A stretch of 48,580 nucleotides of DNA from Planctomycetales bacterium (GTDB lineage: Bacteria; Planctomycetota; Planctomycetia; Pirellulales; Thermoguttaceae), in contig SLBP01000069.1 of assembly GCA_007126245.1 (NCBI GenBank), positions 1 through 48,580 on the forward strand, written 5' to 3'. The notes below the pieces were generated by a model. That model saw nothing but the letters and a program-made list of their open reading frames with translations, searched no databases and was not told where the DNA came from. Position numbers and translations under genes: made by a program. This document shows positions 3,487 through 10,190 of the stretch, one piece after another (positions within the stretch are counted from its first letter, which is position 1; the number at the start of each line of letters is the position of its first letter).

Positions 3487-3751
3487 GCTGGATCGCTTCC
3501 TGGTCGGAGACCAATTGGAACACCGTCGTCCCATCCACGGCCTCCCGCCTCGCCGCCTGGCCCGAGGCTCGCTGGACGAGTGCGCAGAGGGCAGGGCCCT
3601 CAGTTTGCTCGGAGATGAAGTCGACGCTGCCATCTGCGAAGGCGGCGTGAAATCCGTTGCTGCAGAGGTCGCCCAGGTGGGCAAACGGGTCCTCCGGATC
3701 GAAGGAAAAATCACGCCTGGTCCACGGAACCTCCCGCTTGGCTTCGCCCAA
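3487..3751 (-). pseudogene. decayed C-terminal fragment of a sixth DUF1559 module (out of frame with the giant upstream ORF)
   Basis: The first 88 codons of track ORF 3158..3751 (AKREVPWTRRDFSFDPEDPFAHLGDLCSNGFHAAFADGSVDFISEQTEGPALCALVQRASGQAARREAVDGTTVFQLVSDQEAIQ) are nearly identical to the end of DUF1559 module 3 in the giant protein. The DNA at 3487-3760 is about 95% identical to 5575-5840. About 360 bp relative to 5850-6190 is missing near 3760, which breaks the frame. Confidence 0.6.
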
Positions 3752-4320
3752 AAGGATTGTGCTCCTCGCCGGGCCCCTGGAGAACGGCGGGTGGATAGCC
3801 GCGGCGGCTGTCGTGATACGAAGTCAGGCCAAATACGAGCTTGCGAAGGCGACTTGCCGTCTCCGAATCGGGCAGAGATGGGCGTTCGGCAGTCCAGCTC
3901 GTGATGTCGTCCGCGGTGCCGTCCTCCCCGTCGGGACCCAGCGACCAGATGAGCGGCTTCTCGCTGTCGGTGCCGCGGGTGGGCGGGTGTTCGTACCGGT
4001 ACTCGTTTCCCCAGGGGTCGCGGGGGACGACGTCGGACCGCACGTAGGGACCGTTCCAGGCCGCGTCTTCCGGCAGGCCGGCGGGCCGTTCGATCAGCGC
4101 ATGCAGGCCTTCCTCCGTGGTGGGATAACGGCCGCAGTCGAGCCGGAATAGCTCCAGGGCCTGCTGGAGATTCTGGATTTGCTTCTGGGTCGATATGTGC
4201 TCCTTGTCGGGCCGAACTGTCTGTTTGATGATTACCTCCACGCCCGCCTTGCTGAGTACATCGAGGAGCTCTCGAACTGACGTATAAGGGGTATCAGCTG
4301 AGGCCTCGACGATCGTTCGG
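3487..4320. repeat. intragenic segmental duplication, copy B (GspG-like domain 2 + truncated DUF1559 module 5 and remnant)
   Basis: See copy A. Matching runs include 3761-4180 vs 6161-6580 and 3487-3750 vs 5581-5840. Confidence 0.7.
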
Positions 4321-7300
4321 GCGGGCTGCCGGTCTTCGAGCAGTTGGCGTAACGCTACCAGGTCGTACCGCCGACCGTCGACGCGGATCGCCCCGCTGGC
4401 GTCGATCTCGATTACCGGCCAGTCTATCTCATCCACCGAAGAGCGCGGCGGCGCGGGAGGGGGAGCGGCCAATTCGAATTTCGTGGCGCCGTCGACGGTC
4501 TCCCGCTTCACCGGCTGGCCCGAGGCCCGCCGGAAGAGCACCGAGAGAGCGTCTCCTTCGGTCTTCTCGGAAACGAAGGAGACGCTGCCGTCGGCGAAGA
4601 GGGCATGGAAGCCACCGGGGAAGTAGCTGCCCAGCTCGGGCAACGGCTCGTCCGGATGGAAGGGGAGATCCCCCGGTTTCGTCCAGGGGACCTCCCGCTC
4701 TGCCTCGACCAGGAGGATAGTATTCGACGTGCCGTCAAAGAACGTGGTAATCGGTACTCCCTCGTTCTCCCGCTGAGCGGCATCCGCCGGAGGTGCAATA
4801 GACGCAGATCCGCTCATTCCCCCCATTTCCATAGGCCTCTGTTGGGGCGGCGACGGGTCCCAGGCGGTGCCCGGGCCAACAAGGGCGAACACCGAGGTAT
4901 TCGTCGACTCGTCCGTGTCCTGCGGGGAACGGTAGACTTCGGGCATCTGGTCAAGCAGCGCGAGATTGTGCGGGCTGTCCCAGGGCTCGTCGCGGCGGTA
5001 CTGCTCGTACAGGTCCGCGGCATCGAGGAACGGCAGGAGCGCTATCCGCCAACTGTAAGAGGTGTCGTTCGGCCCACGGAGGGTCGCAGGTGGGAACCTC
5101 CCGTGCATGTCGTGGTATTCGTGCAGCGCAATGCCGAGCTTCGCGAGACGCCCGGCTGCCTCCTGCCGGAGACTCGTCTCGGGAGAAAGGTCGGGCTGGC
5201 CGGCGGGAAACGACGGCGGCTTCGTTGCCGGTCCGACTCCGACGCGGCGCAAGTCCCAGACCTCATGGCGTCCGTCCCCCGCGGAGTCCATGGCGGCGGG
5301 CCGCTCCCTCCCCTCCGGGTCGATAGCAATCCGCAGGCGATGGAGGTCCAGTTCATAGATCGCCGCAAAACTGTGCTCCCGGCCACGAGACGTTGAGATC
5401 AGGTCGATCGCCTGCCGCTGGGGATCGAGCTCGAAGCGGCCGACGCGAATGGTATCTTGGCCGCGATCCCATTCCACCAACTCGTACCGGTCCTCTCGAA
5501 ACGTGACCGTTCGCGGTCCGGAACGGAGCTGGACCCGCTCCTGGCCACCGCGCATCACGGAAAGGAATTCCCAGGTCCCCTGGATCGCTTCCTGGTCGGA
5601 GACCAATTGGAACACCGTCGTCCCATCCACGGCCTCCCCCCTCGCCGCCTGGCCCGAGGCTCGCTGGACGAGTGCGCAGAGGGCAGGGCCTTCAGTTTGC
5701 TCGGAGATGAAGTCGACGCTGCCGTCCGCGAAGGCGGCGTGAAATCCGTTGCTGTAGAGACCGCCCAGGTGGGCAAACGGGTCCTCCGGATCGAAGGAAA
5801 TGTCGTCAGGTCGGGTCCACGGAACCTCCCGCTTCGCTTCGACCAGAAGGATCGTGTTCATCGCGCTGTCATGCATCAAGGGGAGGGGCACCCCCTGCGC
5901 AGGGGCTTCGTCCGCTGGGGGCACATTCAATCCGGCGTCCACGAGTTCTTCAGTGCACGGCGGGTCCCAGGCCGTGCCGGGACCCACGAGCGCAAAGACC
6001 GAAGTGTTTGTCGAGTCTTCCGCGTCTCGTGGGGAACGGTAGACCTCGGGCATCCTGTCCAGGAGGGCGAGGTTGTGGGGGCTGTCCCAGGGCTCGTCGC
6101 GGCGGTATTGGCTGTAGAGATCGCTCTCGCCGACCATGGGGAGCAGTGCCACCCGCCAACTGTAGGGTTCCTCGCCGGGCCCCTGGAGAACGGCGGGTGG
6201 AAAGCCGCGGCGGCTGTCGTGATACGAAGTCAGGCCAAATACGAGCTTGCGAAGGCGCCTTGCCGTCTCCGAATCGGGCAGAGACGGGCGTTCGGCAGTC
6301 GAGCTTGTGATGTCGTCCGCCGTGCCGTCTTCTCCATCCGGACCTGAGGACCAGAGAAGCGGCTTCTCGCTATCGGTGCCGCGGGTGTGCGGGTATTTGT
6401 ACCGATACTCGTTGCCCCAGGGATCGCGGGGGACGGCGTCGGACCGCACGTAGGGACCGTTCCAAGCGGCATTCTCCGGCAGGCTACTGGGCCGTTCGAT
6501 CAGCGCGTGCAGGCCTTCCTCCGTGGTGGGATAACGGCCGCAGTCGAGCCGGAAGAGCTCCAGTGCCTGCCGCAGGTTCTGGATTTGCGTCTGGGCCGAA
6601 ATGTGATCGATCTGATCCTTGTCAGGCTGAAGTGCCCGTCGTAAGAGAGTGACTTCCACGCGCATGCGGGTGAGTAGCTCGAGGATCTCCCTAATCGGCG
6701 CGTAAGGGGTATCGGGCGAGGCTCGGATGAGTGCTCGGCGAGGCCTCTGATCTTCAAGCAGTTGGCGAAACGCTACCAGGTCGTACTGTTCGCCGTCGAC
6801 GCGGATCGCCCCGCTGGCGTCGATCTCGATGACGGGCGGCGCACGCGGCCGCGCGGGAGGGGGAGCGAGCAGCTCGAATACAGTCGCGCCGTCGACGGTC
6901 TCCCGCTTCACCGGCAGGCCCGAGGCCCGCCGGAAGAGCGCCGAGAGAGCGTCTCCTTCGGTCCTCTCGGAAACAAAGGAGACGCTGCCGTCGGCGAAGA
7001 GGGCATGGAAGCCACCGGGGAAGTAGCCGCCCAGCTCGGGCAACGGCTCGTCCGGATGGAAGGGGTAATCCTCCGGTTTCGTCCAGGGGATCTCCCGCTC
7101 CGCCTCGACCAAGAGAATGGTATTCGATGTGCCGTCACGGATCTCTTGAATTGGCACTCCTTTGGCATCGGCCGGAAGCCCTCCCCCCATCGCCATTGTC
7201 ATCATTGCCCTTGTTGTAGCCGGGTCCCAGACAGTGCCGGGGCCGACGAGGGCGAAGACCGAGGTGTTGGTCGAGTCGTCGACGTCCTTTGGGGAACGGT

Positions 7301-10190
7301 AGACCTCGGGCATGCGATCGAGGAGCGCCAAGTTGTGGGGACTGTCCCAGGGCTGGTCGCGGCGGTATTGCTCGTAGAGGTCGGCTGCTTCCAGGAACGG
7401 CAGCAGCGCCACGCGCCAACTGTAGGGCGTCTCGCCGGGGCCGGTAAGGACTGGGGGCGGAAAGCTGTGATGGGCATCGTGATAGTTGTGCAGGGCGATG
7501 CCGATTCGCGCCAATCGCCTGCCCGCCTCCTGTCGGAGTTCAGCTTCCGGATCGAGCGGTTCCTCGCTACGCGGCACCGGATCGGGACCGGCGGCGCCGT
7601 AATCGAAACCCGCCGGCGGGCGTCGCGGCGCGCGAGGGGGACCGGCCAATTCGAATTTTGTCGCGCCGTCGACGGTCTCCCGCTTCACCGGCTGGCCCGA
7701 GGCCCGCTGGACGAGCGCCGAGAGGGCGGCTGCGTCGCTCCTCTCGGAAACAAAGGAGACGCTGCCGTCGGCGAAGAGGGCATGGAAGCCTCCGGGGAAG
7801 TAGCCGCCCAACTCGGGCAGCGGCTCCTCCGGATGGAAGGGGAGATCCTCCGGTTTCGTCCAGGGAACCTCCCGCTCCGCCTCGACCAGGAGGATGGTGT
7901 TCATCGTGCCGTCAGGGATCGCGGAAAATGGCACTCCGTCGAGTCCGTGCGGAGTGGTATAGGCCGAGTGTGCGGATCCCATCATCCCCGCGCCTCCCAT
8001 CATCCCCGCCCCCGACATCCCCATAGGCATCTGCCTGGGCGGGGACGGGTCCCAGGCGGTACCGGGGCCGACGAGGGCAAAGACCGAGGTGTTGGTCGAG
8101 TCGTCGGCGTCCTTGGGGGAACGGTAGACCTCGGGCATGCGATCGAGGAGCGCCAAGTTGTGGGGACTGTCCCAGGGCTGGTCACGGCGGTATTGCTCGT
8201 AGAGGTCGGCTGCTTCCAGGAACGGCAGCAGCGCCACGCGCCAACTGTAGGGCGTCCCGCCGGAGCCGGTAAGGACCGGGGGCGGAAAACTGCGATGGGC
8301 ATCGTGATAGTTATGCAGGGCGATGCCGATCTGCTGCAACCGCCTGGCCGCCTCCTGCCGGAGTTCGGCCTCCGGATCGAGCGGTTCCTCGCTGGGGGGC
8401 ACGACTTGGGGTGGCGTCTCCGGGGCAACGCGACGCAGTTGCAGGAAAAGTACCGCAGGCGCATCGGCGCGGGGCTCGACCGATGTAGGTCGCTCGCCAT
8501 CCTCCTGCTGTTGCAGCGCGAGACGGAGGTGGTCGTTCTCCAGCGCGTAGATCCCGCGTTTGATCATCTCTCGGCCATCGGACTCTACCTCGTGCATGTC
8601 GATCGCCTTGCGTTCGGGATCGAGCGTGAACACACCGACAATGACAATCGTCTCGGACCGGCCCTCCATCTCCTCGATCAACTCGAACCGGTCATCCCGA
8701 AAGACTAGCCTGGGCGAGGTGAAGATGATCGAGCCAAGCAGTTCCCGCTTGCCCTGGATCACCGACGTGGCCTCCCAGGTACCCTGGATCGCCTCCCGGT
8801 CGGGCATGGTGGTCGGAAGCGTTACCGTGACGTTCCCCTCCTCGTCCACCTGGGCGTGTGCCCCGGCGGGGACCTCGACGCGCGTGGCCTTGCCGTCACG
8901 CACGATGGTAATCACGATCCCCAAGGCAACGGCCGCAGCCACGCCGGCCAGCGCCAGGCCCACTGCCGTGAGCAGGCGCGAGGGGCGCCAGCGGACCGGC
9001 TGGGTCGCTCTTGGCGGCGCGGCCGAGGGCTCCTCCGCCTTCGCCCCTGCCGCAACGACTCCCGCCAGGTCGGCATCTACGGTGAAGGGCGCCAACGCCG
9101 CGGCCAGCTCGGCGGGCGTGGCGAAGCGGTCGGCGGGGTCTTTGGCCAGGAGCCGCTCGACGATGGCCGCTACGCCGGCGGGCACGTGCGGGGCCAGCCG
9201 GCGGAGCGGCGGGGCCGTGGCGTGGACGTGGGCGTGGAGCTTCTCCAGCGTCCCCGAGTGCTCGGGGGCCATGAAAGGGGCCCGCCCGGTGAGGAGCTTG
9301 TAGAGCGTGCAGCCGAGGCTGTAGAGGTCGGCGCGGATGTCGACGGTGTGGCTGTCGCGGACCTGCTCGGGGGCCATGTAGTCGGCGGTCCCCATGGCCT
9401 GGCCGGTGGAGGTCATCTCCTCACCGGCGGCCGCCTCGGCGTTGAGCAGCGCGAGGCCGAGATCGAGGAGCTTCACCTCGCCCGCCGTGCTGAGCATGAC
9501 GTTCGAGGGCTTCACGTCGCGGTGGACGAATCCATGTTCGTGGACGTAGTCGAGGGCCAGGGCCGCCCGCCGCACGATCTCGCAGGCATCGGCGAGGGCC
9601 AGCGGTCCTCGCCGCCGAAGCAACTCGGCCAGGTCGCAGCCCTCGACGAACTCCATCACCAGCAGCATCTCGCCGTCGATCTCGCGGGCGTCGTAGGCGT
9701 GGACGATGTTGGGGTGGTTCAGCCGGCCGACGGCCTTCATCTCGCGGGCGAAACGGGCCAGGGCCTGGGGGTCGTCGAGCCGGTGCTTGGGGAGGACCTT
9801 CAGGGCCACGACACGGTCCAGCCGCGTGTGGAGGGCCAGGTACACGCGGCCCATCCCCCCGCGGCCCAGTTCCTCGATGACCTCGTACTCTCCCAGCATG
9901 CGGCCGCCTGCCATGCCCGCTTCGGCCGTTTCCCCTTCCCTGCCACCCATTGCCCGCACCCGCGCCAGCGCCAACCGGCACTGCGACTCCCCCTCGAACG
10001 GGTCGGTTGCCCCCGGCTGCCGGAGCTGCTCGACGAAGGTATCGGCGGCATCGTCGATGGTGGCGATTTCGGCCTGGCAGTCGGGGCAGGTTTCGAGGTG
10101 CTCCGCCACGGCCTCGGCCGCCCGTTCGTCGATCTTCCCCACCGCGTAGGCATGGAGCGCTTCGCGCCGCGGGCAGGTGATGCTGTTCAT
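3711..10190 (-). CDS. giant multidomain protein: N-terminal anti-sigma-like zinc finger + Ser/Thr protein kinase + TM helix + beta-rich domain + tandem pseudopilin-like modules (5x DUF1559 core, 2x T2SS GspG-like, 2x ExbD/TolR-like)
   Basis: Single 2159-aa ORF. N-terminus: C-x13-H-x3-C-x2-C (CPRREALHAYAVGKIDERAAEAVAEHLETCPDCQ). Kinase motifs: LGRGGMGRVYLA, VALKVL, HRDVKPSNVML, DLGLA, GTADYMAPEQ. TM helix: LLTAVGLALAGVAAAVALGIVITIV. DUF1559 motifs occur five times: IGIALHNYHD..FPP, WRVALLPFLE, DSTNTSVFALVGPGTAWD, DGTSNTILLVEAEREVPWTKP, GGFHALFADGSVSFVSE. GspG C-terminal-like segments occur twice (QIQNL.QALELFRLDCGRYPTTEEGLHALIERP...PRDPWGNEYRY). ExbD-like segments occur twice (VIEIDASGAIRVDG..YDLVA.RQLLED). 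Confidence 0.85.
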   Translation of the reverse strand: MNSITCPRREALHAYAVGKIDERAAEAVAEHLETCPDCQAEIATIDDAADTFVEQLRQPGATDPFEGESQCRLALARVRAMGGREGETAEAGMAGGRMLGEYEVIEELGRGGMGRVYLALHTRLDRVVALKVLPKHRLDDPQALARFAREMKAVGRLNHPNIVHAYDAREIDGEMLLVMEFVEGCDLAELLRRRGPLALADACEIVRRAALALDYVHEHGFVHRDVKPSNVMLSTAGEVKLLDLGLALLNAEAAAGEEMTSTGQAMGTADYMAPEQVRDSHTVDIRADLYSLGCTLYKLLTGRAPFMAPEHSGTLEKLHAHVHATAPPLRRLAPHVPAGVAAIVERLLAKDPADRFATPAELAAALAPFTVDADLAGVVAAGAKAEEPSAAPPRATQPVRWRPSRLLTAVGLALAGVAAAVALGIVITIVRDGKATRVEVPAGAHAQVDEEGNVTVTLPTTMPDREAIQGTWEATSVIQGKRELLGSIIFTSPRLVFRDDRFELIEEMEGRSETIVIVGVFTLDPERKAIDMHEVESDGREMIKRGIYALENDHLRLALQQQEDGERPTSVEPRADAPAVLFLQLRRVAPETPPQVVPPSEEPLDPEAELRQEAARRLQQIGIALHNYHDAHRSFPPPVLTGSGGTPYSWRVALLPFLEAADLYEQYRRDQPWDSPHNLALLDRMPEVYRSPKDADDSTNTSVFALVGPGTAWDPSPPRQMPMGMSGAGMMGGAGMMGSAHSAYTTPHGLDGVPFSAIPDGTMNTILLVEAEREVPWTKPEDLPFHPEEPLPELGGYFPGGFHALFADGSVSFVSERSDAAALSALVQRASGQPVKRETVDGATKFELAGPPRAPRRPPAGFDYGAAGPDPVPRSEEPLDPEAELRQEAGRRLARIGIALHNYHDAHHSFPPPVLTGPGETPYSWRVALLPFLEAADLYEQYRRDQPWDSPHNLALLDRMPEVYRSPKDVDDSTNTSVFALVGPGTVWDPATTRAMMTMAMGGGLPADAKGVPIQEIRDGTSNTILLVEAEREIPWTKPEDYPFHPDEPLPELGGYFPGGFHALFADGSVSFVSERTEGDALSALFRRASGLPVKRETVDGATVFELLAPPPARPRAPPVIEIDASGAIRVDGEQYDLVAFRQLLEDQRPRRALIRASPDTPYAPIREILELLTRMRVEVTLLRRALQPDKDQIDHISAQTQIQNLRQALELFRLDCGRYPTTEEGLHALIERPSSLPENAAWNGPYVRSDAVPRDPWGNEYRYKYPHTRGTDSEKPLLWSSGPDGEDGTADDITSSTAERPSLPDSETARRLRKLVFGLTSYHDSRRGFPPAVLQGPGEEPYSWRVALLPMVGESDLYSQYRRDEPWDSPHNLALLDRMPEVYRSPRDAEDSTNTSVFALVGPGTAWDPPCTEELVDAGLNVPPADEAPAQGVPLPLMHDSAMNTILLVEAKREVPWTRPDDISFDPEDPFAHLGGLYSNGFHAAFADGSVDFISEQTEGPALCALVQRASGQAARGEAVDGTTVFQLVSDQEAIQGTWEFLSVMRGGQERVQLRSGPRTVTFREDRYELVEWDRGQDTIRVGRFELDPQRQAIDLISTSRGREHSFAAIYELDLHRLRIAIDPEGRERPAAMDSAGDGRHEVWDLRRVGVGPATKPPSFPAGQPDLSPETSLRQEAAGRLAKLGIALHEYHDMHGRFPPATLRGPNDTSYSWRIALLPFLDAADLYEQYRRDEPWDSPHNLALLDQMPEVYRSPQDTDESTNTSVFALVGPGTAWDPSPPQQRPMEMGGMSGSASIAPPADAAQRENEGVPITTFFDGTSNTILLVEAEREVPWTKPGDLPFHPDEPLPELGSYFPGGFHALFADGSVSFVSEKTEGDALSVLFRRASGQPVKRETVDGATKFELAAPPPAPPRSSVDEIDWPVIEIDASGAIRVDGRRYDLVALRQLLEDRQPARTIVEASADTPYTSVRELLDVLSKAGVEVIIKQTVRPDKEHISTQKQIQNLQQALELFRLDCGRYPTTEEGLHALIERPAGLPEDAAWNGPYVRSDVVPRDPWGNEYRYEHPPTRGTDSEKPLIWSLGPDGEDGTADDITSWTAERPSLPDSETASRLRKLVFGLTSYHDSRRGYPPAVLQGPGEEHNPFGRSQAGGSVDQA
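5575..6660. repeat. intragenic segmental duplication, copy A (GspG-like domain 1 + DUF1559 module 3)
   Basis: Aligned by eye to 3487-4320 at roughly 92-95% identity, apart from one ~360-bp gap in the other copy. Both copies encode the same GspG-like and DUF1559 segments. Confidence 0.7.

What the first reader, a model, noticed from the sequence alone, without database searches (positions are those of the whole stretch)
3711..10190. Ser/Thr kinase whose extracytoplasmic sensor is a covalently concatenated string of pseudopilin-like domains
DUF1559 proteins are normally ~300-aa stand-alone proteins with an N-terminal prepilin-type cleavage/methylation helix. GspG is the major T2SS pseudopilin. 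Here five DUF1559 cores, two GspG C-terminal-like domains and two ExbD/TolR-like domains lack their N-terminal pilin helices. They are fused in series after a single TM helix, downstream of an anti-sigma-type zinc finger (C-x13-H-x3-C-x2-C) and a complete Ser/Thr kinase. Two beta-rich GTWE.. domains are interspersed. This reads like a covalent pseudopilus-mimic ectodomain coupled to kinase and sigma-factor signalling. I am not aware of a described example of this arrangement. DUF1559 module 1 also carries an unusual Gly/Met-rich insert (GMSGAGMMGGAGMMGS).
Basis: partly seen in the sequence, partly recalled or inferred. Interest (0 to 1): 0.85.

Follow-up and report, generated by a model that had tools for sequence, protein, structure and literature searches.

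The report
Receptor kinase with pseudopilin-head ectodomain
This is a real 2159-residue membrane Ser/Thr kinase from a planctomycete whose periplasmic part is a duplicated string of helix-less pseudopilin heads (DUF1559, GspG), ExbD-like and TIGR03067 domains; it is an extreme, 3'-truncated member of a large and almost unstudied kinase family rather than a one-off invention.

Summary
ORF 3711-10190 (minus strand) encodes a ZAS zinc finger, a complete Hanks kinase, one TM helix and about 1,730 periplasmic residues. The periplasmic order is TIGR03067-DUF1559-DUF1559-ExbD-GspG-DUF1559-TIGR03067-DUF1559-ExbD-GspG-DUF1559 fragment. HMMs, PDB sequence and profile hits and two AlphaFold models confirm each domain type except the TIGR03067 fold. 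DUF1559 has a pilin-like core; the ExbD-like module matches ExbD/TolR periplasmic domains.

Corrections:
- Only four DUF1559 cores are complete. The fifth is cut by a 311-bp frameshifting deletion, with an out-of-frame remnant and a low-GC island downstream.
- The zinc motif is C6-x24-H31-x3-C35-x2-C38.
- No ECF sigma gene lies in the window, although five of six homologues examined have one directly upstream.

The protein belongs to a large planctomycetal family: ZAS-kinase-TM-variable periplasmic modules. In that family DUF1559, ExbD, GspG heads and SecDF-P1 recur. Kinase-TM-DUF1559 is already catalogued, and a kinase with a GspG head exists elsewhere.

Most likely it is a modular receptor kinase acting on an ECF sigma factor encoded elsewhere. 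The "covalent pseudopilus mimic" idea is unsupported but not excluded. I class it as a new variant of a known kind, of moderate interest.

The parts
3711..10190 (-). Whole ORF, 2159 aa plus stop codon: ZAS-kinase-TM-modular periplasmic region
10011..10190 (-). N-terminal zf-HC2 / ZAS anti-sigma-type domain (residues 1-60); motif C6-x24-H31-x3-C35-x2-C38
   Evidence: Pfam zf-HC2 33.2 bits; NCBIfam anti-sigma and ChrR models match weakly; sequence
9081..9908 (-). Hanks-type Ser/Thr kinase domain (residues 95-370) with GxGxxG, VALK, HRDVKPSN, DLG and APE motifs
   Evidence: Pkinase 2.5e-54; PknE/PknB in the PDB at 1e-54 to 1e-56, with aligned motifs
8901..8957 (-). The only transmembrane helix (residues 412-430)
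   Evidence: Kyte-Doolittle 2.68; the next best segment scores 1.56
8412..8801 (-). T1: TIGR03067 domain (residues 464-593)
   Evidence: NCBIfam TIGR03067 5.5e-21, 2 stretches; fold not determined
7587..8411 (-). D1: helix-less DUF1559 head (residues 594-868) with the Gly/Met-rich loop at residues 716-742 (nt 7965-8042)
   Evidence: PF07596 2e-32
6819..7586 (-). D2: helix-less DUF1559 head (residues 869-1124); modelled
6633..6818 (-). E1: ExbD/TolR periplasmic-domain-like module (residues 1125-1186)
   Evidence: 49-60% identical to E2; family profile hits ExbD/TolR in the PDB
6291..6632 (-). G1: GspG globular head without the N-terminal hydrophobic helix (residues 1187-1300)
   Evidence: T2SSG 1.2e-29; EpsG/GspG structures at 1e-16 to 1e-18
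5598..6290 (-). D3: helix-less DUF1559 head of the second subtype (residues 1301-1531); no Met-rich loop
   Evidence: PF07596 4.2e-17
5229..5597 (-). T2: TIGR03067 domain (residues 1532-1654)
   Evidence: best stretch 1532-1633
4452..5228 (-). D4: helix-less DUF1559 head (residues 1655-1913) with a Met-rich loop at residues 1783-1799
   Evidence: PF07596 1.2e-31
4221..4451 (-). E2: ExbD/TolR periplasmic-domain-like module (residues 1914-1990); modelled
   Evidence: Pfam ExbD at 1912-1986; AF2 pLDDT 86; Foldseek top six hits are ExbD/TolR
3891..4220 (-). G2: second GspG head (residues 1991-2100)
   Evidence: T2SSG 3.8e-29
3714..3890 (-). D5: N-terminal 43-residue DUF1559 fragment (nt 3762-3890), then 16 out-of-frame residues to the stop codon
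3488..3764 (-). Out-of-frame remnant: C-terminal third of D5 and the first residues of a third TIGR03067 domain ('DQEAIQ'). It lies downstream of a 311-bp deletion. Homology to unit 1 stops abruptly at about 3488

Best explanation
The gene encodes a genuine single-pass (N-in, C-out) Hanks-type receptor Ser/Thr kinase. It belongs to a large planctomycetal family built as ZAS zinc finger - kinase - TM - variable periplasmic modules.

Its roughly 1,730-residue periplasmic region grew by tandem duplication of a cassette: TIGR03067 - DUF1559 - ExbD-like - GspG head - DUF1559. Every pseudopilin-derived module has lost the hydrophobic N-terminal helix and survives as a soluble head domain.

Inferred mechanism:
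1. The head domains, ExbD-like domains and TIGR03067 domains act as periplasmic binding modules for an envelope-associated ligand or partner protein.
2. Occupancy changes kinase activity.
3. The output is an ECF sigma factor that the N-terminal ZAS domain docks or sequesters and that the kinase may phosphorylate.

In this genome the partner sigma gene is not adjacent. The last cassette has been destroyed by a deletion and a downstream breakpoint, so the present C-terminus is secondary.
For: Shown:
- Domain identities.
- ExbD-like module: fold matches ExbD/TolR periplasmic domains.
- Single TM helix and intact catalytic motifs.
- Family context: the 120 best homologues share the ZAS-kinase-TM core. 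Their ectodomains include DUF1559, ExbD, SecDF_P1_head, HlyD/MFP, Poly_export, LRR, WD40 and FGE-sulfatase. TIGR03067 is present in 59 of the 120.
- An ECF sigma gene lies directly upstream in 5 of 6 homologous loci. Those sigmas are orthologous to each other and keep the acidic DAADVVQE motif.
- Paralogous modules differ with dN/dS 0.17-0.55 at dS 0.25-1.7, so they evolved under purifying selection after duplication.
- An independent GspG-DUF1559 junction exists in another metagenome (P0128).
- The longest exact internal repeat is 72 bp.

Established knowledge: ECF sigma factors paired with Hanks receptor kinases that carry diverse extracytoplasmic domains are a known signalling type (PMC7826278, PMC13147305).
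Against: - No ligand, partner or phosphorylation target is identified.
- No sigma gene or remnant lies in the window, so the sigma link is inferred from homologues only.
- The 3' end is damaged and abuts a low-GC island. The gene could therefore be on its way to loss.
- No independent assembly of this locus was found.
- The fold of TIGR03067 was not determined.
Confidence: 0.6

Rival explanations
1. Covalent pseudopilus mimic. The concatenated pseudopilin heads imitate an assembled pseudopilus or dock onto the T2SS/type IV pilus-like machinery, or onto the many free DUF1559 pilins. The kinase would then report on the state of that machinery.
For: All six pilin-derived modules are true pilin-fold heads. 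DUF1559 prepilins are massively expanded in Planctomycetes (PMC8567305, PMC10632474). The family repeatedly borrows periplasmic parts of envelope machines: ExbD, SecDF P1, secretin STN, MFP, Poly_export.
Against: The alpha1N helix that drives fibre packing is absent from every module. The modules are separated by Pro-rich linkers and by non-pilin domains. Relatives carry a single DUF1559 or GspG head. No T2SS or pilus genes lie in the window.
Confidence: 0.12
2. Decaying paralogue. This is an orphaned, 3'-truncated copy that has lost its sigma partner and is no longer functional.
For: A frameshifting 311-bp deletion, an out-of-frame remnant and an abrupt loss of homology next to a low-GC island. 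There is no partner sigma gene, unlike 5 of 6 homologues.
Against: 6.5 kb of uninterrupted reading frame with intact kinase and ZAS motifs and normal GC3. dN/dS between modules is below 1. Only the last cassette is damaged.
Confidence: 0.2
3. Assembly artefact. Repeats were mis-joined, and the real locus holds separate small DUF1559/GspG genes or a different number of cassettes.
For: Internal repeats with 76-97% nucleotide identity. The sequence is probably a metagenome-derived contig. No second assembly is available.
Against: The longest exact repeat is 72 bp, shorter than typical reads and final k-mers. All junctions are in frame, and no module has a start codon, signal peptide or prepilin leader of its own. 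Similar multi-module proteins and a GspG-DUF1559 junction occur in unrelated assemblies. The 311-bp deletion joins non-homologous positions, unlike a repeat collapse.
Confidence: 0.05
4. Metal sensing. The Gly/Met-rich loops of the D1/D2/D4-type DUF1559 modules bind Cu(I) or Ag(I), making the protein a periplasmic metal-responsive kinase.
For: 14 of the protein's 43 Met residues lie in three loops at the same structural position. The loop is conserved in position and composition in the closest homologues P0002, P0003, P0005 and P0006. It is a low-confidence surface loop in the model. Other GspG-head proteins carry the HMBD heavy-metal-binding domain, and many family kinases carry MFP domains. 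That Met-rich loops bind Cu(I) in CueO, PcoA and CusF-type proteins comes from my own knowledge.
Against: There is no conserved MxxM/His spacing and no copper or silver resistance genes nearby. The loop is absent from D3 and from most DUF1559 domains. Such loops can be plain low-complexity linkers.
Confidence: 0.08

Closest known systems
ECF sigma factor / Hanks-type receptor kinase pairs (V. parahaemolyticus PknT-EcfP, X. citri PknS-EcfK; ECF43, ECF59-62 and related groups)
   Same: A bitopic Ser/Thr kinase with an N-terminal extension before the kinase domain, one TM helix and a variable extracytoplasmic sensor. In the homologues of this protein the ECF sigma gene is adjacent.
   Different: Here the N-terminal extension is a recognisable ZAS (zf-HC2) anti-sigma motif. 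The partner sigmas of the homologues keep the acidic DxxDxxQE motif rather than the ECF43 QTTA motif. This particular locus has no adjacent sigma gene.
PknB/StkP-type PASTA kinases
   Same: Closest solved kinase domains (PknE and PknB, 1e-54 to 1e-56). The logic is the same: kinase-TM-tandem extracytoplasmic repeats.
   Different: The repeats are pilin heads, ExbD-like and TIGR03067 domains rather than PASTA. The NCBIfam PknB_PASTA model scores 288 bits against a cut-off of 450.
DUF1559 / H-X9-DG prepilin-type proteins of Planctomycetes (N_methyl + SBP_bac_10)
   Same: The same globular domain (PF07596, TIGR04294) and a pilin-like core fold.
   Different: There is no prepilin leader or hydrophobic helix. 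The domains are internal modules of a kinase. Part of them carry an inserted Gly/Met-rich loop.
GspG/EpsG/PulG major pseudopilin of the type II secretion system
   Same: The globular head is clearly homologous: TIGR01710 at 1e-52, PDB GspG chains at about 1e-16 to 1e-18, about 40-50% identity to GspG proteins.
   Different: It starts at profile position 29, which is the same truncation used to make soluble crystallisation constructs. It is preceded by an ExbD-like domain instead of alpha1N. It is not in a gsp operon.
ExbD/TolR periplasmic domain
   Same: Same fold and profile-level homology.
   Different: No TM helix and no ExbB/TonB or TolQ context. It is a roughly 75-residue internal module that recurs in at least 17 family proteins.
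Catalogued architecture 'Pkinase; transmembrane region; DUF1559' (PMC11032199, supplementary table S8)
   Same: A kinase-TM-DUF1559 arrangement in Pirellula-group planctomycetes.
   Different: Those have a single DUF1559 as listed. The present protein has 4.2 DUF1559 modules plus 2 GspG, 2 ExbD-like and 2 TIGR03067 modules.

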